In this document: positions 1 through 7,903 of the stretch, one piece after another | How the letters are laid out: each line of letters starts with the position of its first letter | Position numbering within the stretch: the first letter of the stretch is position 1 | Sequence record: MT833283.1 | Strand: one strand, 5' to 3' | Source: Escherichia coli phage vB_EcoS_Ace | Length of the DNA stretch: 64,000 bases | Notes under the pieces: generated by a model | Seen by the model: only the letters and a program-made list of their open reading frames with translations | Told to the model about the DNA's origin: nothing | Databases searched by the model: none | Program-made: the position numbers and the translations under genes

Positions 1-68
1 CCTGGGATTCGAACCCAGAACTGACGGATTAAAGGTCCGCTACTCTTATCCAGTTGAGCTAGCAATCC
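1..68 (-). tRNA. tRNA, 3' acceptor end cut by window edge; anticodon loop read as CCTTTAA (possibly UUU, Lys)
   Basis: Minus-strand hand fold: D-arm GCTC/GAGT, anticodon stem GCGGA/TCCGT, T-arm CTGGG-TTCGAAT-CCCAG; the 3' acceptor strand lies outside the window. C at position 33 is atypical. Confidence 0.55.
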
Positions 69-700
69 AATTTTTCTACTAATAATTTAAAAGCATCTAG
101 TACAGGTACTTCAAACCACTCTCCAGATACTCTATAATCTTTAAGAAGATTATGTAATTCTTTCTCTGTACGTCTTTTATCCGACGAAAATCTGAAATGG
201 TATAGCTTGTAGTCTCTATTAGGTGAATAAGTTTGATAACTTGCTAACCTCTCATTCACATCTATAGTCATACCTATTTTATACATGCCTGGCCATGCTG
301 GATTACCAATTACATATATAAAACCTTCCGTTATAGGTATTTTATGCTCCCTTTTATACTTTAAGAGATTTAAGGCTGCCATTCGATAACAGAATCTAAA
401 CTCTGAAGTTTTTAACTTACCTTCTTTACCCGAAATTTCGTTATATTTGCTCATATAAGCTCTTATGAGCTTATCATCTATAATGAAGTTATCAGGAAGG
501 TTTAAGGCAGCTAAAACTTTATTAATTAGCATAGACTTCCTTAATAGAGTATCCTTAATAGAGTAGACTTTCAAGTAAGGATGATTGATTCCTAATTCCG
601 CCATCACTTCGTTTTTATCTTTACCGTAATGGGCTAGTGGATACTTCTTACGATCTTTGCTAGATCGTAGATCACTTACCTTTAAACGAAATAATTTCAT
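59..700 (-). CDS. GIY-YIG-like (T5orf172/MUG113-type) domain protein, homing-endonuclease-like
   Basis: 213 aa ORF; core FIYVIGNPAWPGMYKIGMT...NERLASYQTYSP resembles the GIY-(10 aa)-YIG motif; paralog of the 3847-4377 ORF; sits between tRNA genes. Confidence 0.7.
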   Translation of the reverse strand: MKLFRLKVSDLRSSKDRKKYPLAHYGKDKNEVMAELGINHPYLKVYSIKDTLLRKSMLINKVLAALNLPDNFIIDDKLIRAYMSKYNEISGKEGKLKTSEFRFCYRMAALNLLKYKREHKIPITEGFIYVIGNPAWPGMYKIGMTIDVNERLASYQTYSPNRDYKLYHFRFSSDKRRTEKELHNLLKDYRVSGEWFEVPVLDAFKLLVEKLDC

Positions 701-721
701 TTCGAAATCCTTCTATTAAAT

Positions 722-799
722 TGGAAGCGGGTGTAGGAATCGAACCTACCTCTTTCTAGCTTATGAGACTAGCGATCTCTACCAAAGATCTAACCCGCA
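722..799 (-). tRNA. tRNA with CAT anticodon (Met or lysidine-modified Ile2)
   Basis: Hand fold: anticodon stem CTAGT/GCTAG, loop CTCATAA, T-arm GTAGG-TTCGATT-CCTAC; CCA encoded (plus 722-724 tgg). Confidence 0.7.
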
Positions 800-805
800 A
801 TTGTT

Positions 806-882
806 TGGTCTCCAATGAAGGACTCGAACCTTCAACCCCACCGCCCCAAACGGTGTACTCTAGCCAATTGAGCTAATCGGAG
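806..882 (-). tRNA. tRNA-Pro (TGG)
   Basis: Acceptor CTCCGAT/ATTGGAG, D-arm GCTC/GAGT, anticodon stem CACCG/CGGTG with loop TTTGGGG, T-arm GAAGG-TTCGAGT-CCTTC, CCA encoded. Confidence 0.8.
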
Positions 883-891
883 AATATTATT

Positions 892-1089
892 TTATTGTGG
901 TGGAATATTAATATTCCGTCCATCTATGCAGTAAATGGTACTAGGAATTGTAGAGTGTATACTGAAGTTTTGTATTTTACTCTCTCCACCACAGAAATTT
1001 TTTGCAAATTCATACTCCTTGTTAATGGTTGAATCAAATTTAAAGCAACCAGTGAGTAAGAATACAGATAGTAACATAACTTTTTTCAT
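892..1089 (-). CDS. small lipoprotein (lipobox LLTGC), function unknown
   Basis: 65 aa ORF starting MKKVMLLSVFLLTGC (signal peptide plus lipobox Cys); a T5-type promoter lies directly upstream on the minus strand (about 1110-1165). Confidence 0.6.
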   Translation of the reverse strand: MKKVMLLSVFLLTGCFKFDSTINKEYEFAKNFCGGESKIQNFSIHSTIPSTIYCIDGRNINIPPQ

Positions 1090-1139
1090 TTTGCTTTCCT
1101 TCTCAACACTTTATAAGATATATTATACAGAGAATTAAG

Positions 1140-1408
1140 CAAAATAGCAAATGAATTTTTAATAAATTTACTTATTGCGTAGGCCACCTGGAGGGTTCAA
1201 GCCCCACGTCTGACAAAGAAGTTTGCGAGACTTCTCTTAAACGCCAGAATAGACCCGCCGATCTATCGGAACCTACTCAATAAGTAAACTTTCGTTTACC
1301 TACACCTACCTGGTCGGGAGGATTTTCAGCTACTAGAACCGGCCGGAAACTCATCGCCTTGTTTACCTTGTAGTCCCACTATAAGTGACGCGACCTACAA
1401 AGATTTTG
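1140..1408 (-). other. ORF-free GC-elevated segment with tRNA-like stem-loops that I could not fold into a canonical tRNA
   Basis: No ORF of 60 aa or more; hairpin GAAGT-CTCGCAA-ACTTC (minus strand, 1218-1234) looks like an anticodon arm; neighbouring TTCAAGC T-loop-like element has a poor stem. Confidence 0.3.
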
Positions 1409-1479
1409 TGCGGTCGGAGGGAATCGAACCCTCAACTTCTGGTTGGCAACCAAAAATTATACCTTTTAACTACGAACGC
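1409..1479 (-). tRNA. tRNA-Gly (GCC)
   Basis: Acceptor GCGTTCG/CGACCGC (one mismatch), anticodon stem TTTGG/CCAGA with loop TTGCCAA, T-arm GAGGG-TTCGATT-CCCTC; CCA not encoded. Confidence 0.7.
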
Positions 1480-1489
1480 ATAATGAGTC

Positions 1490-1690
1490 AATCTAGGTAG
1501 GACTTGAACCTACTATCACTTGTGCGGATTTACGAGAACCATTCTTTCACTCGAATCGAACGAGCTTCTACCCTCGGCAAGCTGGTGTCCCCTCTCCACC
1601 ACGCTAGAATGATAATTAATGCCTGCTCCTTTGAATCAAGAAGTCCACCCCGGACTTTGGGTCTTTGCAGTACATCACGCTGCTCTGATG
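1490..1690 (-). other. tRNA-like region with two T-arm-like elements, unresolved (tRNA pseudogenes or an atypical long tRNA-like RNA)
   Basis: T-arm-like GTAGG-TTCAAGT-CCTAC (plus 1497-1513) and GCTCG-TTCGATT-CGAGT (plus 1549-1565); candidate acceptor pairing 1490-1496 with 1604-1610 would give about 120 nt, too long for a standard tRNA. Confidence 0.3.
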
Positions 1691-1692
1691 TT

Positions 1693-1769
1693 TGGTACAC
1701 CCACTAGGACTTGAACCTAGAACCTACCGCTTAAGAGGCGGTAGCTCTAACCAATTGAGCTATGGATGT
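1693..1769 (-). tRNA. tRNA-Lys (CTT)
   Basis: Acceptor ACATCCA/TGGGTGT, D-arm GCTC/GAGC, anticodon stem ACCGC/GCGGT with loop CTCTTAA, T-arm CTAGG-TTCAAGT-CCTAG, CCA encoded. Confidence 0.8.
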
Positions 1770-1775
1770 ATAATT

Positions 1776-1850
1776 TGGCGGTACTAAGGGTAATCGAAAC
1801 CCTACCTCTCCCGTGACAGGGGAGTATCCTAACCGTTAGACTATAGTACC
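1776..1850 (-). tRNA. tRNA-Asp (GTC)
   Basis: Acceptor GGTACTA/TAGTACC perfect, anticodon stem CTCCC/GGGAG with loop CTGTCAC, T-arm AGGGT-TTCGATT-ACCCT, discriminator G then CCA encoded. Confidence 0.85.
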
Positions 1851-2371
1851 TTTAACTTTTTAAGTTCTTTAGGATTGCCTCCTAAAGAAGTGTATCTTTT
1901 ACGCAACCCATTATCTGAATAACTTAACTTTCTCCCTGCACCTGACCAGCCTAGCTCTCTTACTGTAACCTCGATTATTTCTTTAGTTATAGAGATATCT
2001 TTTGGTTTATGTGAAGAGCACTCCTGACATTTTTCAGCTTTTAAAGAAATAGCTTTACCACAATCCTTACAACAATTATCATGGTTTAGTTTACTAAATC
2101 CTTTATCTTTTAAAGTCTTTTCTAGATGCTGCTCTTTTGTGAGCACTTGTAAGTTATTAAGACCCCAATAAGTAATGTCTGTGTTAATATGGTCAACTTC
2201 TAGTTCAGAGTCTAGACTTGGTAATTTCTTAAATGCACATGCTAAAATCCTATGTACACCAGTATTTCTCTGTTGACCATTTTTATGGAGACGTATAGAT
2301 AAGTATCCGTAATTACTGGTTATTGGGGTTAGTATTTTGTTTGATTTGATACTAAATACTAACCCATCCAA
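1841..2371 (-). CDS. HNH homing endonuclease
   Basis: 176 aa; HNH core VHRILACAF...EVDHINTD...NNLQVL; C-terminal Cys-rich region; located within the tRNA island. Confidence 0.75.
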   Translation of the reverse strand: MDGLVFSIKSNKILTPITSNYGYLSIRLHKNGQQRNTGVHRILACAFKKLPSLDSELEVDHINTDITYWGLNNLQVLTKEQHLEKTLKDKGFSKLNHDNCCKDCGKAISLKAEKCQECSSHKPKDISITKEIIEVTVRELGWSGAGRKLSYSDNGLRKRYTSLGGNPKELKKLKVL

Positions 2372-2425
2372 ACTTACTAAGTACTTCTCAAACCCTGGAA
2401 TGGGTAAGGATATTCAGTGCATAAT

Positions 2426-2611
2426 TTACTCAGTTTTGAGTTTTTCGATAGCTTCCTCAACCTCTTTTAGAGCTTCACGACGCTCTACTTGACCTTGAAG
2501 TTCTTCAAGAAGTTCAGCTTTCAGAGCCTTAATAATATTACCACGAACCTTAATATTATTAATCAGATTATCACGATCAGCTTCTAGTCGAGCAATTGCA
2601 CGAGTTGTCAT
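2426..2611 (-). CDS. hypothetical small coiled-coil protein
   Basis: 61 aa ORF with RBS GAGGAAA upstream of the ATG on the minus strand. Confidence 0.5.
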   Translation of the reverse strand: MTTRAIARLEADRDNLINNIKVRGNIIKALKAELLEELQGQVERREALKEVEEAIEKLKTE

Positions 2612-2714
2612 ATCTATTTCCTCAGTTGTTAATGAAAAATGGTATCTGTGACTGAATTCGATATCAGCAATGATAGCTGGTTGGCTACCGGTTTACTTAA
2701 CTCTACACAGAATA

Positions 2715-2797
2715 TGGCGGGCCGTGTAGGATTCGAACCTACGTTGTCTTTCGACATGGATTAACAGTCCACCGCCAAACCGCTTGGCTAACGACCC
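2715..2797 (-). tRNA. tRNA, anticodon read as GTT (Asn) with an unusual 13-nt extra arm
   Basis: Acceptor GGGTCGT/ACGGCCC, D-arm GCCA/TGGC, anticodon stem GTGGA/TCCAT with loop CTGTTAA, extra arm GTC-GAAA-GAC, T-arm GTAGG-TTCGAAT-CCTAC, CCA encoded. Confidence 0.6.
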
Positions 2798-2804
2798 TAA
2801 AATT

Positions 2805-2880
2805 TGGACGACCGCATGAGATTCGAACTCACATAAGGAGGTTTTGCAGGCCTCCGCCTAAGCCATTCAGCCAACGGTCG
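2805..2880 (-). tRNA. tRNA, anticodon uncertain (apparent 9-nt anticodon loop CCTGCAAAA; GCA/Cys or TGC/Ala)
   Basis: Acceptor CGACCGT/GCGGTCG, T-arm GTGAG-TTCGAAT-CTCAT, CCA encoded; anticodon stem GGAGG/CCTCC encloses 9 nt. Confidence 0.55.
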
Positions 2881-3058
2881 ATTTATCTTGCTTTTCGAGA
2901 TTAGTAAACTCTAGATCTATAGAATGTCCTATAGATCTAGCATAATAGCCATCTCCAGCATCATAGCCTGACTTACCACACTCACACATCTTAAACTCTC
3001 TATAACGAGTGAAAATATGTTCAGAACCACAACACTTAAATTTAACTAACATTTTCAT
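2867..3058 (-). CDS. hypothetical small Cys-rich (zinc-ribbon-like) protein
   Basis: 63 aa ORF with CC...C.C pattern (KFKCCGSEH...CECGKSG); 3' end overlaps the tRNA 5' end by about 14 nt. Confidence 0.45.
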   Translation of the reverse strand: MKMLVKFKCCGSEHIFTRYREFKMCECGKSGYDAGDGYYARSIGHSIDLEFTNLEKQDKSTVG

Positions 3059-3297
3059 TTAACACGCTCCGGTAAATCTTCGAGTTTATATTGAGTAGCC
3101 ACATTAGCAGCATCTAGTAACAAACCCATATGTTTAAGAATCCTAGTGATAGCCTCGCCTTCTGCTTCTTCTACAAAAGTGCGTAGTTGAATGAAGTCAA
3201 TACCACCATCCATACCAGAGAAAATGTTAAGTAAGCGAAGCATTACCAGCTTACGTTCTTTCAGTTCTTGTTCTATCATGTTGCTTCTCCAGTTCAA
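3055..3297 (-). CDS. hypothetical protein
   Basis: 80 aa ORF, stop/start overlap with the downstream ORF; minus-strand promoter at about 3305-3350. Confidence 0.5.
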   Translation of the reverse strand: MNWRSNMIEQELKERKLVMLRLLNIFSGMDGGIDFIQLRTFVEEAEGEAITRILKHMGLLLDAANVATQYKLEDLPERVK

Positions 3298-3329
3298 TTT
3301 ATGTAATAATTATACAGAACTTTAAGGAT

Positions 3330-3668
3330 TTAAGCAACTACATTTTTCAGAAATTTGATGCCTTTCTTACACTTCTTATACCACCACGTCTTAGAGTTTT
3401 GTCGATTATGAACGCTTGAGATCTTCGCCTCATTAAAGTGCTTCAAAAGCATATAATCAGCCCCTAATTGCTCAAGTGGAATGTGATCTCCACTAGAATC
3501 ATAAACATAAGGCCGTTGATTAGCTCTGTAGTGATATACCTTATTAATCCGGCGTTTAAGCAAAGGACTAGTACAGTATATAAAGAAGTTTTTAGGATGC
3601 ATCAGCATCTCCTTCAAAATTGGTGCACCCCGTTGGTAACGATCCAACCTCTCAAGCTCTTCAGGCAA
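3330..3668 (-). CDS. hypothetical protein
   Basis: 112 aa ORF on the coding strand of this block. Confidence 0.5.
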   Translation of the reverse strand: MPEELERLDRYQRGAPILKEMLMHPKNFFIYCTSPLLKRRINKVYHYRANQRPYVYDSSGDHIPLEQLGADYMLLKHFNEAKISSVHNRQNSKTWWYKKCKKGIKFLKNVVA

Positions 3669-3701
3669 GCGCTAATCCATCTCAGCTAAAGGTGCAAATA
3701 T

Positions 3702-3777
3702 TGGCAAACCTACTAGGACTCGAACCTAGACCGTACGGTTTTGGAGACCGACATGCTGTCCAGTAACACTCTAGGAA
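3702..3777 (-). tRNA. tRNA-like, low confidence (anticodon read as CCA, Trp); acceptor pairing poor
   Basis: Good T-arm CTAGG-TTCGAGT-CCTAG and CCA encoded (plus 3702-3704), anticodon arm CGGT-CTCCAAA-ACCG; the 5' acceptor strand has two mismatches in my fold. Confidence 0.45.
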
Positions 3778-3786
3778 TGCAGAAAT

Positions 3787-3860
3787 TGGTATTCTCACAC
3801 GGATTCGAACCGAGATTTCTGGAGTGAAGTTCCAGTGACCTAACCATTAGTCGATGAGAA
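3787..3860 (-). tRNA. tRNA, anticodon read as TTC (Glu)
   Basis: Acceptor GTTCTCA/TGAGAAT, anticodon stem CTGGA/TCCAG perfect with loop ACTTCAC, T-arm CTCGG-TTCGAAT-CCGTG, CCA encoded. Confidence 0.6.
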
Positions 3861-4377
3861 CATTATATTCTTTTGCTTTCTCTAATTTTAGAAAAGACTT
3901 TAATTCTTCTAAGTTAATTATATTAAACCATTCACCTTCTAGTGCAAAAGGTTTAAGAAACTTATGTATTTTTGATTCTACCGCACGTCTATCGGAGTAG
4001 AATTGATAGTGCTCCAGAGTAAAATCTCTGTAAGGACTATATGTTTGATATGACCTCAGTCTTTCATGGACATTTACTGTCATACCTATTTTGTAACAAT
4101 TAGGCCATGCTTTATTGCCAATAACATATACCATACCTTCATACACAGGTAATTTATGCGCTTGTTTATACTGAATAAGATTTAAAGCAGAAATTCTATC
4201 ATACTGCATTATTCTTTTAGTATTCTTCTTTTCAGTACAAGTACCTTTTATCTCATTATAGATTTCTCGATATTTAGCAAGTAAATCTACATCAATAACA
4301 AAAGGTATAGTAGGAGAGATAATATCTCTTTCCTCCATAGCGCTAATTACTATTTTTGGTATATCTGGTATTGCCAT
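3847..4377 (-). CDS. GIY-YIG-like (T5orf172/MUG113-type) domain protein, paralog of 59-700
   Basis: 176 aa; shared core GMVYVIGNKAWPNCYKIGMTVNVHERLRSYQTYSPYRD with the 59-700 ORF. Confidence 0.7.
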   Translation of the reverse strand: MAIPDIPKIVISAMEERDIISPTIPFVIDVDLLAKYREIYNEIKGTCTEKKNTKRIMQYDRISALNLIQYKQAHKLPVYEGMVYVIGNKAWPNCYKIGMTVNVHERLRSYQTYSPYRDFTLEHYQFYSDRRAVESKIHKFLKPFALEGEWFNIINLEELKSFLKLEKAKEYNVLID

Positions 4378-4397
4378 TTTTAGACCTTAGTTAAATT

Positions 4398-4485
4398 TGG
4401 TGGGCGTTAATGGAGTCGAACCACTCGAGTCGCAATGACCAGGGATTTACAATCCCCTCCGCTACCACTTACGGAATAAACGCCC
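4398..4485 (-). tRNA. tRNA-Tyr (GTA), type II with long variable arm
   Basis: Acceptor GGGCGTT/AACGCCC, D-arm TCCG/CGGA, anticodon stem GGGGA/TCCCT with loop TTGTAAA, about 15-nt variable arm, T-arm AGTGG-TTCGACT-CCATT, CCA encoded; 88 nt. Confidence 0.75.
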
Positions 4486-4616
4486 ATATTTAGAAGTATT
4501 CAAAAAATTCTCATTTAAACACTTTTAAATATGTTTCCAAATTAGATAACTATTATATCAAGTTTTATGGCACTGAGCAAGTCAGATTTTAAAGAACTTG
4601 CTCAGTGCTGTATTAG

Positions 4617-4892
4617 TTAGTCGAACTTAGGAGTGACAGTTAAGGAGAACGGAAGTTCAAAAACTTCTTCACCCTCATCACTAACAGTGATTACCCGACC
4701 CTCTAACTTATTCATGCTAATCTCAACATCAGCCGTAGCATCTGGAGCCATGCCAGCTTCAACACATTTAGCTTTAATTTCCGGCAGAAGTTCTACATCA
4801 TAGAAATAAAGCCATTCAATCTCACCTTCCCAGCCTTCCCAGGATTTACAGATTGCACTTTCAATACCAGTTGTTATAACACGATTTTGCAT
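4617..4892 (-). CDS. hypothetical protein
   Basis: 91 aa ORF; strong hairpin (4570-4610) just downstream on the minus strand. Confidence 0.5.
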   Translation of the reverse strand: MQNRVITTGIESAICKSWEGWEGEIEWLYFYDVELLPEIKAKCVEAGMAPDATADVEISMNKLEGRVITVSDEGEEVFELPFSLTVTPKFD

Positions 4893-4982
4893 TCGTTAAC
4901 TCCTTCATCAATTTATATAACTATTATAACAGAAATCTTAAGTAAAAAGCAAGTACATTTTTAAAATTTCTGCTTGGAGGAG

Positions 4983-5255
4983 TTAAACTCCTGATTCTTC
5001 AGCCAGATCAAGCCCAACCAACGTGATTGCCATAATAGCCGCGCCATGTTCCTTCTCTCCTAGCTCTTTAGCTTGAGTGAGAATATTGAGGAATTGCTTT
5101 TGAAAATCTGTAACTTCTTCTGTCATGCCTGCTTCAGCAATAATTCCTTTCAGCATAAAGCGTTGTGCCGTAATTTCAGGATTAGCCATTTGTTTTCTCC
5201 AGTTATTTAGAATGTAAGCCAAACTTAGGATCATAGCGATCATAAGTCGTACCAT
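4983..5255 (-). CDS. hypothetical protein
   Basis: 90 aa ORF. Confidence 0.5.
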   Translation of the reverse strand: MVRLMIAMILSLAYILNNWRKQMANPEITAQRFMLKGIIAEAGMTEEVTDFQKQFLNILTQAKELGEKEHGAAIMAITLVGLDLAEESGV

Positions 5256-5341
5256 TAGTTGAAGCCTTGATGCTATGAAAACGACAGTACATAAATTTAC
5301 GTAGTGCTTTATTAATAGCTTTCATTTTATTTCCTTTTATT

Positions 5342-5418
5342 TGGTAGGGGTGGTGGGATTCGAACCCACAAAACCTGAATTTTAAGTCCAGTACCTATGC
5401 CAATTCGATTACACCCCC
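5342..5418 (-). tRNA. tRNA, anticodon read as TAA (Leu) with short variable arm
   Basis: Acceptor GGGGGTG/CACCCCT, anticodon stem CTGGA/TTCAG with loop CTTAAAA, T-arm GTGGG-TTCGAAT-CCCAC, CCA encoded. Confidence 0.6.
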
Positions 5419-5426
5419 ATGTAATC

Positions 5427-5765
5427 TTAGCGAATCTCTAAACCCTGGAAATATCGAGGGAATGGAGAGCCAACTTCAAAATTAATACCCCAATTAAGTT
5501 CAACGAGTTCAGATTTATTAAGATCCAGACCATTACCTTCAAAGATATAGCCGTAAACCGCAGGGAACATAGCTGCTAGATCTTCCATATCGGAATGAGC
5601 ATTGTGTTCTTCACGAAACTGCTCAAACTCTTCAAAGAACTTTTCTAGGAAGAACTCTGGTACAATGAACGTTACTACATCTGTGGTATCATCAATACGA
5701 TAGATGGTAGCTTGGAATAGACCTACACCTAAAAGGTTGACTGCCGGAGTTGTAAAAATATCCAT
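5427..5765 (-). CDS. hypothetical protein (start moved to internal ATG)
   Basis: The ORF track starts at 5876, but the ATG at 5765 has RBS GAGG and follows the stop of the upstream ORF (TAA-A-ATG), avoiding a 110-nt overlap. Confidence 0.5.
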   Translation of the reverse strand: MDIFTTPAVNLLGVGLFQATIYRIDDTTDVVTFIVPEFFLEKFFEEFEQFREEHNAHSDMEDLAAMFPAVYGYIFEGNGLDLNKSELVELNWGINFEVGSPFPRYFQGLEIR

Positions 5766-5766
5766 T

Positions 5767-5952
5767 TTAGCCTCGCTCAATATCAAAAGAAATTGCATAA
5801 TTAGGGTTAATGCCAGAACCTTTACAGGTAGGACATTCCCATTCGTTATAGAAAATGTCCCCAGGTTCAGCATCATTTTGAGTGCCAGAACCCCAACATT
5901 CAGTACACATACATTCTTCTAGCTCTTGAGCAATTTCTCGAAAGCGTGACAT
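5767..5952 (-). CDS. small zinc-finger-like protein
   Basis: 61 aa with CxxCxGSG...CPTCKGSG motifs; RBS AGGAGA upstream. Confidence 0.55.
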   Translation of the reverse strand: MSRFREIAQELEECMCTECWGSGTQNDAEPGDIFYNEWECPTCKGSGINPNYAISFDIERG

Positions 5953-5969
5953 ATAGTCTCCTAATTAAT

Positions 5970-6047
5970 TGGTGGCTCCCGGAGGATTCGAACCTACCTA
6001 CCTTTCGCTTATGAGGCGACGGCTCATACCAAATGAGCTTGAGAACC
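5970..6047 (-). tRNA. tRNA with CAT anticodon (second copy; Met or Ile2)
   Basis: Acceptor GGTTCTC/GGGAGCC, D-arm GCTC/GAGC, anticodon loop CTCATAA, T-loop TTCGAAT, CCA encoded. Confidence 0.7.
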
Positions 6048-6052
6048 AAATC

Positions 6053-6146
6053 TGGAGGAAGATGCCAGATTCGAACTGGCACACCGTGTTTCCACAGCTA
6101 CTGGCTGTTTAGCAAACAGCTCCCTTACCATTAGGGTTAATCTTCC
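6053..6146 (-). tRNA. tRNA-Ser (GCT), type II
   Basis: Acceptor GGAAGAT/ATCTTCC perfect, anticodon stem GCTGT/ACAGC with loop TTGCTAA, long variable arm, T-arm GCCAG-TTCGAAT-CTGGC, CCA encoded; 94 nt. Confidence 0.8.
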
Positions 6147-6197
6147 GAATTTATGAATATATTATACAGAAAATTTCGACATTAAGCAAGTGAAATT

Positions 6198-6494
6198 TTA
6201 CTGAACCTTGCACTGATATACTTGTTTGATACGTGTCACTGACTTCTTAGTTGGATTGATAGAAGAACCCTGCCACCAACGTGATTCTGAGCTGAGAACA
6301 GTACCAGGAACAGCTTGTTCTTTTGGCAGAACAATATCAAAACACTGTTCACCCATATTATCTTTAATGTGCGACCAAATGTCTAGAGTAAATCGTTCTA
6401 GCTTATTACAAACTTGAACTTGACAAAGTTCCTGTTGTGGAGCAGCAAATACAGAAGTAGATACTAGAGTCAATGCAAGTACAATGCGTTTCAT
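6198..6494 (-). CDS. secreted protein with signal peptide
   Basis: Start at ATG 6494 (MKRIVLALTLVSTSVFA) preceded by the T5-type leader TTTGAGAGAGGAATCAAAT and a promoter at about 6515-6570. Confidence 0.65.
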   Translation of the reverse strand: MKRIVLALTLVSTSVFAAPQQELCQVQVCNKLERFTLDIWSHIKDNMGEQCFDIVLPKEQAVPGTVLSSESRWWQGSSINPTKKSVTRIKQVYQCKVQ

Positions 6495-6600
6495 ATTTGA
6501 TTCCTCTCTCAAATTTATAAATATATTATACAGAAATTTTCTATATTAAGCAAGTGAAAATTTCTGTATAATAGCCCTCGCTTAGAGGGCTATAGCTACT

Positions 6601-7293
6601 TTATTTGTTAACGCGTACAAAGTATCCTTTATATGCCCCAAGAATAGAGTTACCTAAAAATACTAGCCACATTGCTAGGATTGCATAAGATGCACCTGTA
6701 GATTGAGCAGTTACAAGCCAAATGTATACAGTACCAATGTTAATAGCAATCCAGATCAGCCACTGCTCGGCATACTGCTTAACCATAAGCCACATAGCGA
6801 TCACACTACCTACCGCAGTAAATGCATCCAACATTGGGAATGGATCAGCCGTAGTAGTTAAGAAACTACCATACCCTAACGTGGCTACTGCTAGAATCCC
6901 TAGAGTCAGCAGAGCTTGGACTTTAGTCAGAATCTTAGTTGGAACATCTGGCAGATTACTTGGCTTATTTTTATGCCATAAGTACATTCCATAAAACTGC
7001 ATAGGAACGTAGTATAGCAGGTTTAGTGCAGCGTTACCATAAAGATCTTCGTTTAAAGCTGTAATACCATAGGTAAGAACACCAACTAAGCCCCAAATAT
7101 AGTTAGAAACACGTCCTTTAGCAACCAAAATAACACAAACTACGTTGGTTATCGCAGTAGCCCAATCTAGAGGTGTACCATTATAGTTAGCTAAACTAAT
7201 GAAGGCAACCGCTATGAACAGCCACAGATATTCCAGAGGTTTCCAGTTTTTAAAGTCATTTACGAGATAGTTAGTCATATTAAAACTCTCCAA
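6601..7293 (-). CDS. pnuC: nicotinamide riboside transporter PnuC
   Basis: 230 aa multi-pass membrane protein; segments PMLDAF and VIAMWLMVKQYAEQWLIWIAINI match PnuC family signatures as I recall them from E. coli PnuC. Confidence 0.8.
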   Translation of the reverse strand: MESFNMTNYLVNDFKNWKPLEYLWLFIAVAFISLANYNGTPLDWATAITNVVCVILVAKGRVSNYIWGLVGVLTYGITALNEDLYGNAALNLLYYVPMQFYGMYLWHKNKPSNLPDVPTKILTKVQALLTLGILAVATLGYGSFLTTTADPFPMLDAFTAVGSVIAMWLMVKQYAEQWLIWIAINIGTVYIWLVTAQSTGASYAILAMWLVFLGNSILGAYKGYFVRVNK

Positions 7294-7903
7294 CGTTAAA
7301 GTGATGAATCAGCCAGTCTACTGCGTTTACTGCTTCGTCCATACGAACTTTGTAGTCCGGGGAGTCGATGTACACAGTACGCCCTTCAGGGAACTGATTT
7401 GGAAATTCTTTCTTCATCTGCTCGAACAGTTCAGAAGTAATTGAACGATCGGAGTTAATACGTAAACCATCATCTACCCACTTGACAGTGGGCGCTAGAA
7501 CAATTACTAAATCGTAATGTTCTTCTTTTGCAATTGCTGTAACCACAGGGTTCTTACGATGTTCATAAAGTCTGTGGTAGAACTCAGTAATAAAAGCATT
7601 TGTATCCACAAACATGATCTTATTTGCAGTACGTTCTGCCTCAAACTCTAGCTCTTTGTGTCTGAACGCAATTTTACTATAATCTTCGCTGGTAAGCAGA
7701 TTTTCGTTACCAACTAGATCAACTTCACAATACGTTCGACCATATTCTTCTACCCACGAAGTGTTGTATAGCTTCGCAAGGTATTTTGTTAAAGTAGTCT
7801 TTCCTGAGCTTTCAGTCCCAATGATTACAACCCTACGCACGTAATCTTTACGAACTACGCTAGGAAGAAACTCCCAATACTTCATAAGATCATTACGAAT
7901 CAT
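7280..7903 (-). CDS. nadR: NadR-like ribosylnicotinamide kinase domain (downstream part of a nadR-like gene interrupted by an in-frame TAG)
   Basis: Walker A IIGTESSGKTTL; translation of the same frame upstream back to the TAG at 8114-8116 gives ...RVPISATMIRNDL (nucleotidyltransferase ISxTxIR motif) with no further stop. Confidence 0.75.
   Translation of the reverse strand: MIRNDLMKYWEFLPSVVRKDYVRRVVIIGTESSGKTTLTKYLAKLYNTSWVEEYGRTYCEVDLVGNENLLTSEDYSKIAFRHKELEFEAERTANKIMFVDTNAFITEFYHRLYEHRKNPVVTAIAKEEHYDLVIVLAPTVKWVDDGLRINSDRSITSELFEQMKKEFPNQFPEGRTVYIDSPDYKVRMDEAVNAVDWLIHHFNVGEF

What the first reader, a model, noticed from the sequence alone, without database searches (positions are those of the whole stretch)
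59..4377. Paralogous T5orf172/GIY-YIG-like genes and an HNH endonuclease interleaved with tRNA genes
Two ORFs (59-700 and 3847-4377) share a GIY-YIG-like core (IYVIG...YKIGMT...ER..SYQTYSP), and an HNH endonuclease (1841-2371) abuts tRNA-Asp. Free-standing homing-endonuclease-like genes inside a tRNA island suggest this arm is a hotspot for selfish-element insertion and may differ between related phages.
Basis: partly seen in the sequence, partly recalled or inferred. Interest (0 to 1): 0.45.

Follow-up and report, generated by a model that had tools for sequence, protein, structure and literature searches.

The report
Homing endonuclease genes among phage tRNAs
Three small selfish nuclease genes (two GIY-YIG/T5orf172 type, one HNH type that carries a stop at codon 3 here) sit directly upstream of tRNA genes in a T5-like phage and are present or absent among close relatives; this arrangement is already described for T5 and T4 phages.

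Summary
The window is a T5-like phage of the genus Epseptimavirus.

- **GIY-YIG genes.** ORFs 59-700 and 3847-4377 both pass the Pfam cut-offs for T5orf172 and MUG113. They are 50% identical, and the predicted fold of the one modelled (3847-4377) matches GIY-YIG nucleases (SLX1, I-TevI).
- **HNH gene.** ORF 1841-2371 is an I-HmuI-like HNH gene.
- **Corrections.**
  - The first gene is really 59-532 (157 aa). A private 14-nt tandem duplication (538-565) fuses it to the conserved upstream 54-aa gene.
  - The HNH gene is really 1841-2422 (193 aa in relatives) and here has a private nonsense codon at codon 3 (TGA, 2414-2416), so it is probably inactive.
- **Occupancy.** Each insert is found in only part of the related GenBank phage records: 85/374, 55/300 and 8/433. 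T5 is empty at all three sites.
- **Recent spread.** Carriers share the inserts at 94-100% identity (99-100% in all but one comparison) while most flanking segments are about 85-92% identical.
- **Junctions.** Each ORF ends 10-15 nt inside the next tRNA gene. Two inserts travel with distinct tRNA alleles. Hybrid, unfoldable tRNA-Asp genes in two relatives mark recombination inside that tRNA.

All of this mirrors T4 SegB, the T5 F-Tfl enzymes and published T5orf172 surveys. It is already known and of low interest.

The parts
1..68 (-). tRNA-Lys(UUU), 3' end cut by the window start. Its first 10 nt supply the last codons and the stop (..D C *) of the first endonuclease gene.
   Evidence: Rfam tRNA 42.2 bits, truncated at its 3' end. 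Annotated tRNA-Lys in IrmaTschudi, Wa28 and rokbiter. Junction alignment.
59..532 (-). T5orf172/GIY-YIG free-standing homing endonuclease gene no. 1 (157 aa from its own ATG at 532).
   Evidence: Pfam MUG113 67.8 bits and T5orf172 56.2 bits. phrog_5032. Start defined by alignment with relatives. Present in 85 of 374 related records. 94.1-99.6% identical in carriers (99.2-99.6% in three of the four, 94.1% in Wa28).
538..565 (.). Private 14-nt tandem duplication (TACTCTATTAAGGA x2). It shifts the frame of the upstream 54-aa gene into the endonuclease frame and creates the 213-aa ORF 59-700.
   Evidence: Alignment with IrmaTschudi, Wa28 and EPS7. None of 88 matching phage records carries it.
533..700 (-). 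Conserved small phage gene (phrog_6221; counterpart of T5.065), normally 54-55 aa, here fused to the endonuclease ORF. In relatives the endonuclease ATG overlaps its stop (ATGCTAATTAA).
   Evidence: phrog_6221 E=2.4e-31 on residues 1-50. Annotated as a separate CDS in relatives.
1776..1850 (-). tRNA-Asp(GTC), 'type A' allele. It shares only the 21-nt anticodon stem-loop with the 'type B' allele of T5, EPS7 and SuperGirl, and it is the only allele found next to the HNH gene.
   Evidence: ARAGORN. Rfam 63.1 bits. Alignments. Full-length in 65 records.
1841..2422 (-). I-HmuI-like HNH homing endonuclease gene (NUMOD4 + HNH_3 + CxxC..CxxC + C-terminal region). It is 193 aa in relatives and interrupted here at codon 3. 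The last codons (K V L *) lie in tRNA-Asp.
   Evidence: PHROG HNH families: 8.8e-17 for this ORF, 6.4e-22 for the full-length orthologue. NUMOD4 24.2 bits (cut-off 23.4) in the orthologue. PDB 1U3E, E=2e-4. Present in 55 of 300 records.
2414..2416 (-). Nonsense codon TGA, where IrmaTschudi, Wa28 and falkor have GGA, at codon 3 of the HNH gene.
   Evidence: A 45-nt query across it found no 28-nt exact word in any phage record.
3787..3861 (-). tRNA-Glu(TTC) allele strictly linked to the second T5orf172 gene. Its first 15 nt encode ..V L I D * of that gene.
   Evidence: ARAGORN. Rfam 52.1 bits. This allele occurs in exactly 8 records, the same number as carry the insert; every listed carrier of either is rokbiter. 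Alignment.
3847..4377 (-). T5orf172/GIY-YIG free-standing homing endonuclease gene no. 2 (176 aa, intact), inserted between tRNA-Tyr and tRNA-Glu.
4398..4485 (-). tRNA-Tyr, the upstream flank of insert no. 2. In empty alleles it lies 6-8 nt from tRNA-Glu.
   Evidence: Empty sites in T5, IrmaTschudi and SuperGirl.

Best explanation
These are three free-standing homing endonuclease genes lodged in the tRNA cluster of a T5-like (Epseptimavirus) phage. Two are paralogous GIY-YIG-superfamily genes of the T5orf172 type, with a roughly 70-residue helical N-terminal part and a C-terminal nuclease domain. The third is an I-HmuI-like HNH gene.

Inferred mechanism: during co-infection with a relative that lacks the gene, the enzyme cuts or nicks the empty allele in or near the adjacent tRNA gene. 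Repair from the carrier genome then copies in the endonuclease gene together with neighbouring sequence, including the linked tRNA allele.

Each gene is packed so that its last 3-5 codons and its stop codon lie inside the 5' end of the next tRNA. It is therefore co-transcribed with the tRNAs. Maturation of the tRNA 5' end should sever the message before the stop codon and keep enzyme levels low, as proposed for T4 SegB.

In this particular genome the HNH copy has a stop at codon 3 and is probably decaying. The first T5orf172 gene is intact, but a 14-nt duplication has fused the upstream gene to it. The second T5orf172 gene is intact.

Shown here: family membership, exact insertion sites, presence/absence among relatives, near-identity of the inserts against diverged flanks, tRNA allele linkage, and hybrid tRNAs. 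Inferred only: cleavage activity, target sites, and control of expression by tRNA processing.

For: HNH: PHROG HNH families, NUMOD4, I-HmuI (1U3E), and a D-H..N-N..E-Q-H motif.

Mobility: occupancy is 85/374, 55/300 and 8/433 records. Precise empty sites exist in T5, S116, SuperGirl, falkor, Kenya-K36 and IrmaTschudi. The inserts are 94-100% identical between carriers (99-100% in all but Wa28's copy of HEG1) while most flanking segments are about 85-92% identical. Insert GC is 30-34% against 40% for the window. A different T5orf172 gene (163 aa) occupies the same tRNA-Tyr/tRNA-Glu junction in Wa28 and S116. Decay is seen elsewhere too: EPS7 has a frameshift in its copy of gene 1.

Recombination at the site: smaug and Kenya-K44 carry reciprocal hybrid tRNA-Asp genes, crossed over in the shared 21-nt anticodon stem-loop, that ARAGORN no longer recognises.

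Precedent: SegB in the T4 tRNA cluster cleaves tRNA genes of relatives, and its ORF end coincides with a tRNA processing site. T5 F-TflI/II/IV lie in the tRNA cluster (PMC2330249). T5orf172 genes are abundant in T5-like phages (PMC10448857). Homing endonuclease genes are the main difference between T5-like genomes (PMC10644984).
Confidence: 0.8

Rival explanations
1. The genes are passive cargo. The tRNA cluster is a general recombination hotspot, with many short conserved tRNA segments serving as crossover points. Cassettes, endonuclease-like or not, are shuffled by ordinary phage recombination, and the encoded proteins no longer drive (or never drove) their own spread.
For: Non-nuclease segments are also polymorphic: the 65-aa ORF at 892-1106, tRNA-Trp, and the ORFs between tRNA-Val and tRNA-Lys in falkor and SuperGirl that match no nuclease family. 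The hybrid tRNA-Asp genes in smaug and Kenya-K44 lack the HNH gene altogether. The HNH copy here and the EPS7 copy of gene 1 are broken yet retained.
Against: Three of three large inserts in this stretch belong to nuclease families typical of homing endonucleases, with catalytic residues conserved. The inserts are 94-100% identical against mostly 85-92% flanks, and different T5orf172 genes compete for the same junction. That is the classic signature of self-promoted spread. The T5 and T4 counterparts have demonstrated site-specific activity (PMC2330249).
Confidence: 0.1
2. The T5orf172 proteins are domesticated. They serve the phage as DNA-binding regulators or as weapons against competing phages, satellites or host DNA, as described for T5orf172-derived proteins in the ICP1/PLE system, rather than as homing enzymes.
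For: T5orf172 domains have been co-opted in the ICP1/PLE conflict (PMC10448857; titles). The two paralogues keep intact ORFs and conserved catalytic residues. The N-terminal domain is not one of the zinc-finger DNA-binding domains common in ICP1-type T5orf172 genes; no cysteine motif is visible in the alignment.
Against: Sporadic distribution (8 of 433 records for gene 2) and precise presence/absence at intergenic junctions argue against a function the phage depends on. No satellite or defence context is visible.
Confidence: 0.07
3. The proteins act on the adjacent tRNAs or their precursors (processing, repair or modification) rather than on DNA.
For: The only support is the consistent position immediately 5' of tRNA genes.
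Against: Both families are DNA endonuclease families. Relatives lacking the genes keep functional-looking tRNAs. The same families occur outside tRNA clusters in other phages.
Confidence: 0.02

Closest known systems
T4 SegB (GIY-YIG free-standing homing endonuclease in the T4 tRNA gene cluster; PMC2330249)
   Same: It is a GIY-YIG-superfamily gene sitting between tRNA genes and absent from close relatives. The end of its ORF coincides with the 5' processing site of the next tRNA. It is inherited together with neighbouring tRNA genes. SegB's targets lie inside tRNA genes.
   Different: SegB has a classical GIY-YIG domain, whereas these are the T5orf172/MUG113 branch with a different, short helical N-terminal part. 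The nuclease domain is C-terminal here. No activity or target has been determined for the present proteins.
T5 F-TflI, F-TflII, F-TflIV (hegC, hegD, hegA; Akulenko et al. 2004, cited in PMC2330249 and PMC10644984)
   Same: They are HNH endonuclease genes inside the tRNA cluster of a T5-like phage. T5 hegC also ends 14 nt inside a tRNA gene (tRNA-Ser2). They are named as the main source of differences between T5-like genomes.
   Different: They sit at different insertion sites; T5 is empty at all three sites occupied here. The HNH gene here has NUMOD4 + HNH_3 plus a CxxC..CxxC segment, while hegA has an N-terminal GerE-type helix-turn-helix. The copy here has a nonsense codon.
T5.069 of phage T5 and the T5orf172 homing endonuclease genes surveyed in ICP1 and T5-like phages (PMC10448857)
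   Same: Same Pfam families (T5orf172 + MUG113). T5.069 is 172 aa, lies in the T5 tRNA cluster and ends 24 nt inside tRNA-Asn. The family is reported as abundant, variable and prone to frameshifts in these lineages.
   Different: Many ICP1-type members carry CapR/DUF723-like zinc-finger DNA-binding repeats and sit next to essential protein genes. The present ones are minimal (157-176 aa), show no cysteine motif, and sit next to tRNA genes.
I-HmuI (PDB 1U3E), HNH nicking homing endonuclease of Bacillus phage SPO1
   Same: It is the best solved relative of the HNH gene (E=2e-4 over residues 8-102 of the full-length orthologue). Both belong to the HNH_3 group of the His-Me finger superfamily (PMC5714182).
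   Different: I-HmuI is intron-encoded, whereas this gene is free-standing. Sequence similarity is weak, and the copy here is interrupted.

Membership tests
T5orf172 / GIY-YIG nuclease superfamily | Match to the curated family profile above its cut-off | tested here: met
   PF10544 T5orf172: 55.3/56.2 and 43.7 bits against a cut-off of 20. PF13455 MUG113: 67.1/67.8 and 59.2 bits against 22.3.
T5orf172 / GIY-YIG nuclease superfamily | Conserved catalytic motif: Tyr of 'GIY', Tyr of 'YIG', Arg, and the metal-binding Glu | tested here: met
   Y84 (V-Y-V), Y95-K-I-G, R106 and E149 (G-E-W-F) are invariant in both paralogues and three database homologues. Dependence on the Glu is reported for a T5orf172 nuclease in PMC10448857.
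T5orf172 / GIY-YIG nuclease superfamily | GIY-YIG fold: three-stranded sheet with beta-beta-alpha-beta-alpha order | tested here: met
T5orf172 / GIY-YIG nuclease superfamily | DNA endonuclease activity | not testable with these tools
   Needs purified protein and substrate DNA.
HNH (His-Me finger, HNH_3 / I-HmuI group) | Match to the curated HNH_3 profile above its cut-off | tested here: not met
   18.8 bits (window ORF) and 18.5 bits (full-length IrmaTschudi orthologue) against a cut-off of 24.8.
HNH (His-Me finger, HNH_3 / I-HmuI group) | Other homology evidence: phage HNH families, the NUMOD4 module, and a solved relative | tested here: met
   phrog_59 at 8.8e-17 and 6.4e-22, plus nine further HNH PHROGs. 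NUMOD4 24.2 bits against 23.4. 1U3E I-HmuI, E=2e-4.
HNH (His-Me finger, HNH_3 / I-HmuI group) | H-N-H motif residues present | tested here: met
   ..LEVDHINTDITYWGLNNLQVLTKEQHLEK.. read directly from the translation; aligned to the I-HmuI active-site region.
HNH (His-Me finger, HNH_3 / I-HmuI group) | Intact reading frame in this genome | tested here: not met
   ATG CAC TGA at 2422-2414, where relatives have GGA. Restart at the TTG at 2371 would lose the first 17 residues, including the start of the NUMOD4 match.
Free-standing homing endonuclease gene (functional class) | Present/absent at a precise site among otherwise collinear relatives | tested here: met
   85/374, 55/300 and 8/433 records. 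Base-level empty sites.
Free-standing homing endonuclease gene (functional class) | Insert more similar between carriers than the flanking genome (recent horizontal spread, co-conversion) | tested here: met
   Inserts are 94-100% identical (99-100% except Wa28's HEG1 at 94.1%) while most flanking segments are about 85-92%. In rokbiter the 100% tract covers tRNA-Trp, tRNA-Glu, the gene and tRNA-Tyr.
Free-standing homing endonuclease gene (functional class) | Enzyme cleaves the insert-less allele, and the gene is preferentially inherited in mixed infection | not testable with these tools
   Requires biochemistry and phage crosses.

The most novel reading that the evidence does not exclude
The endonuclease genes and the tRNA genes they overlap may move as units, so that homing drives replacement of whole tRNA alleles between T5-like phages. 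Examples here are tRNA-Asp type A against type B, which share only the anticodon stem-loop, and the tRNA-Glu allele found only with gene 2. Such replacement could carry tRNA variants that differ in sensitivity to host tRNA-targeting defences. Its cost would be occasional hybrid, dead tRNA genes such as those in smaug and Kenya-K44. The stop-codon-inside-tRNA design would then couple endonuclease dosage to tRNA maturation.
Probability: 0.3. Interest if true: 0.45.

Novelty: already known. Interest (0 to 1): 0.2.

Why it matters
It matters little beyond correct annotation. The result confirms that the tRNA cluster of T5-like phages is a landing zone for selfish nuclease genes, which explains much of the mosaic difference between otherwise collinear genomes. 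For anyone annotating this phage, the practical points are these. The 213-aa ORF is a fusion caused by a 14-nt duplication. The HNH gene is a probable pseudogene. The tRNA-Asp and tRNA-Glu alleles are linked to the inserts. The hybrid tRNA-Asp genes in two relatives are a small but concrete lead for studying how homing reshapes phage tRNA sets.

Tried and rejected
- **PDB sequence search for T5orf172:** the search with the T5orf172 protein gave only noise (E>1), so fold comparison was used instead.
- **Large protein database:** it returned only 3 homologues. The structure model therefore rests on a five-sequence alignment; it still reached pLDDT 80.
- **Promoter/terminator scan of 1-6500:** no more sites than in shuffled sequence (14 against 18.5 promoters, 5 against 3.8 terminators). 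Nothing is claimed about dedicated promoters.
- **Is the carrier's tRNA-Lys allele a cut-resistant variant?** The empty alleles of falkor and SuperGirl differ strongly from it, but the empty T5 allele has a similar acceptor stem. No consistent pattern emerged, so the idea was left open.
- **Do HEG1-less phages carry a competing nuclease on the other side of tRNA-Lys?** The ORFs there (falkor 1332-1792) match only unknown-function PHROGs and no Pfam family, so the idea was rejected.
- **Is stop-inside-tRNA unique to endonuclease genes?** No. The DUF7695 ORF 2867-3058 does the same with tRNA-Cys.
- **Other paralogues in the window:** tblastn of the three proteins against the whole 64-kb window found none.
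- **Are the two lesions shared with relatives?** Neither lesion was found in any record of the phage collection. For the nonsense codon this rests on the absence of a 28-nt exact word, which is indirect evidence.

Full report
**Observation.** All ORFs named in the finding exist on the minus strand at the stated coordinates. They are interleaved with tRNA genes. ARAGORN finds 13 tRNAs in 1-6200. Rfam adds a tRNA cut by the window start (1-68) and a weak tRNA, tRNA-Phe by homology, at 3624-3695. The two GIY-YIG-like ORFs are real paralogues: 50% identity over 135 aa, E=2e-47.

**Origin.** Megablast of 1-6200 against GenBank phages finds 566 records of T5-like phages (Demerecviridae, mostly Epseptimavirus and Tequintavirus). 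The best are IrmaTschudi, Wa28, SUT_E1620, PMBT22 and EPS7. No record covers more than 87% of the stretch, which already points to insertions and deletions.

**Family membership, T5orf172 genes.**
- Both ORFs pass the curated Pfam cut-offs for T5orf172 (55 and 44 bits against 20) and MUG113 (67 and 59 bits against 22.3), and both fall in phrog_5032.
- In an alignment of the two paralogues with three database homologues, the GIY-YIG catalytic positions are invariant: Y84, Y95-K-I-G, R106 and E149.
- An AlphaFold2 model of the 176-aa protein (pLDDT 80.3, pTM 0.74) has three N-terminal helices followed by a beta-beta-alpha-beta-alpha core.
- A sequence-only PDB search found nothing.

**Family membership, HNH gene.** The HNH ORF is below the Pfam HNH_3 cut-off (18.8 against 24.8). 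It does match ten PHROG HNH families (best 8.8e-17). Its full-length orthologue in IrmaTschudi adds a NUMOD4 match above cut-off and hits the solved HNH homing enzyme I-HmuI (1U3E, E=2e-4). The D-H..N-N..E-Q-H motif is visible in the translation.

**Corrections to the gene models.**
- *First gene.* In IrmaTschudi, Wa28, rokbiter and EPS7, ORF 59-700 corresponds to two genes. One is a conserved 54-aa gene (phrog_6221, the counterpart of T5.065). The other is a 157-aa endonuclease gene whose ATG overlaps the upstream stop. The window carries a 14-nt tandem duplication (TACTCTATTAAGGA twice, 538-565) that shifts the small gene into the endonuclease frame. The endonuclease gene proper is 59-532. 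None of 88 matching records has the duplication.
- *HNH gene.* It starts at ATG 2422 in relatives (193 aa). The window reads ATG CAC TGA where IrmaTschudi, Wa28 and falkor read ATG CAC GGA. A 45-nt query across this position found no exact 28-mer in the phage collection, so the nonsense codon appears private. The HNH copy here is therefore probably inactive.
- *Decay elsewhere.* EPS7's copy of the first gene has a 1-nt insertion just after its ATG and is annotated as a shorter ORF.

**Presence and absence among relatives.** Each site was queried together with its flanks.

| Site | Window query | Records with insert / records matched |
|---|---|---|
| T5orf172 no. 1 | 1-890 | 85 / 374 |
| HNH | 1693-2611 | 55 / 300 |
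| T5orf172 no. 2 | 3602-4600 | 8 / 433 |

Counts are records, and they include GenBank/RefSeq duplicates. Base-level alignments show clean empty sites:
- At site 1, the small gene's stop is followed directly by tRNA-Lys(UUU) in T5, S116, falkor and SuperGirl.
- At site 2, the DUF7337 gene's stop is followed after 9-11 nt by tRNA-Asp in T5, S116, SuperGirl and Kenya-K36.
- At site 3, tRNA-Tyr is followed after 6-8 nt by tRNA-Glu in T5, IrmaTschudi and SuperGirl.

T5 is empty at all three sites. It carries other endonuclease genes elsewhere in the same cluster: hegC/TflI, T5.069 (a 172-aa T5orf172 protein) and hegA/TflIV. falkor has an HNH_3+AP2 gene next to tRNA-Ser(GCU), where the window has none. 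Wa28 and S116 carry a different T5orf172 gene (163 aa) at the same tRNA-Tyr/tRNA-Glu junction.

**Signs of recent spread.** Per-segment identities show that the inserts are nearly identical between carriers:
- gene 1 is 99.2-99.6% in IrmaTschudi, EPS7 and rokbiter, and 94.1% in Wa28;
- the HNH gene is 99.3-99.5%;
- gene 2 is 100% in rokbiter.

Most flanking segments are about 85-92% identical. In rokbiter the 100% tract runs from tRNA-Trp through tRNA-Glu and gene 2 to tRNA-Tyr. The inserts are also AT-richer than the window (30-34% against 40% GC).

**Junction anatomy.**
- *ORF ends.* Every one of the three ORFs ends inside the 5' end of the next tRNA. The endings are ..D C * in tRNA-Lys (10 nt overlap)..K V L * in tRNA-Asp (10 nt) and ..V L I D * in tRNA-Glu (15 nt). 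T5 hegC (14 nt into tRNA-Ser2), T5.069 (24 nt into tRNA-Asn) and the Wa28/S116 gene (10 nt into tRNA-Glu) do the same. The arrangement is not exclusive to endonuclease genes, because the DUF7695 ORF 2867-3058 ends 14 nt inside tRNA-Cys.
- *tRNA-Asp alleles.* The HNH gene is found only next to a 'type A' tRNA-Asp. Type A shares just the 21-nt anticodon stem-loop with the 'type B' allele of T5, EPS7 and SuperGirl. Type A is full-length in 65 records, and it also exists without the gene (Kenya-K36).
- *tRNA-Glu allele.* The tRNA-Glu allele next to gene 2 occurs in exactly 8 records, the same number as carry gene 2.
- *Hybrid tRNA-Asp genes.* smaug carries a tRNA-Asp with a type B 5' half and a type A 3' half, and Kenya-K44 carries the reciprocal hybrid. 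Both are crossed over in the shared stem-loop, have mismatched acceptor strands, and are not recognised by ARAGORN. This is direct evidence of recombination inside that tRNA gene.

**Mechanism.** The best reading is classical intronless homing. The enzyme cuts or nicks the insert-less allele in or near the neighbouring tRNA gene during co-infection. Repair then copies the gene and the adjacent tRNA allele. Expression would come from read-through transcription of the tRNA operon. It would be coupled to the upstream gene, since the start overlaps or lies 3 nt after the upstream stop for gene 1 and the HNH gene. tRNA 5' maturation would cut the message before the stop codon and so limit expression. 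That last step is inferred by analogy with SegB (PMC2330249). Cleavage, targets and biased inheritance were not and could not be tested here.

**Comparison with what is known.**
- T4 SegB is a GIY-YIG homing endonuclease in the T4 tRNA cluster. It cleaves tRNA genes of relatives, and its ORF end coincides with a tRNA processing site. The same paper notes that T5 F-TflI, II and IV lie in the tRNA cluster.
- The BF23 genome paper states that homing endonuclease genes such as the F-Tfl HNH enzymes are the main source of differences among T5-like genomes.
- Barth et al. 2023 describe T5orf172 as a GIY-YIG subfamily that is abundant in T5-like phages, variably present and frequently frameshifted.
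- tblastn finds the family at 531 places in 449 phage records.
- The very genes in this window have 99-100% identical copies in GenBank, some already labelled 'putative homing endonuclease'.

The finding is therefore correct but already known. The private nonsense codon, the private duplication, and the tRNA allele linkage with hybrid tRNAs are refinements, not a new kind of system.

**Dead ends.** These are listed under 'tried and rejected'. The main ones are the uninformative promoter scan, the thin homologue search, and the lack of a consistent difference between carrier and empty tRNA-Lys alleles.

Noticed in passing
window 892-1106: A 65-aa lipoprotein-like ORF (892-1089; phrog_6073 'Rz-like spanin', E=1.5e-24) lies in a 215-nt segment that is itself an indel. 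It is 100% identical in IrmaTschudi but absent from Wa28, EPS7, rokbiter, S116 and SuperGirl. T5 and falkor carry a different small membrane ORF at that position.
   Followed up: partly
window 3624-3695: A tRNA (tRNA-Phe by homology with rokbiter, Wa28 and T5) is detected by Rfam at only 33.4 bits and is missed by ARAGORN. It may be a weakened or unusual tRNA.
   Followed up: partly
window 3702-3778: tRNA-Trp is 100% identical in Wa28, EPS7, rokbiter and S116 while the neighbouring sequence is about 91% identical. It is missing from IrmaTschudi, falkor and SuperGirl. It behaves like a mobile or co-converted segment.
   Followed up: partly
L011 (smaug) about 1201-1277; L012 (Kenya-K44) about 1170-1243: Reciprocal hybrid tRNA-Asp genes (5' half of one allele, 3' half of the other), crossed over in the shared 21-nt anticodon stem-loop. 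Their acceptor strands no longer pair, and ARAGORN does not call them.
   Followed up: partly
L003 (EPS7) 1559-2032: The EPS7 copy of the first T5orf172 gene has a 1-nt insertion just after the start codon and is annotated as a shorter ORF (131 aa). This is another decaying copy.
   Followed up: partly
L007 (falkor) 6352-6861; L004 (rokbiter) 6376-6894; L005 (T5) 6780-7298: Next to tRNA-Ser(GCU), where the window has a signal-peptide ORF (6198-6512), relatives carry either an HNH_3+AP2 endonuclease gene (falkor) or a 172-aa Toprim-like gene (rokbiter, T5.076).
   Followed up: partly
window 2867-3058 and tRNA-Cys 2805-2880: A non-nuclease ORF (DUF7695, phrog_7042) also ends 14 nt inside the next tRNA gene. 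Stop-inside-tRNA is therefore a general packing feature of this cluster, not a mark of endonuclease genes alone.
   Followed up: no
L007 (falkor) 1332-1792; L008 (SuperGirl) 1499-1959: Phages that lack the first T5orf172 gene carry two unknown-function ORFs (47 and 105 aa; phrog_13931 and phrog_6053) between tRNA-Val and tRNA-Lys(UUU), together with a very different tRNA-Lys allele. Carriers of the gene have tRNA-Val and tRNA-Lys adjacent. The two arrangements look mutually exclusive in the eight loci compared.
   Followed up: partly
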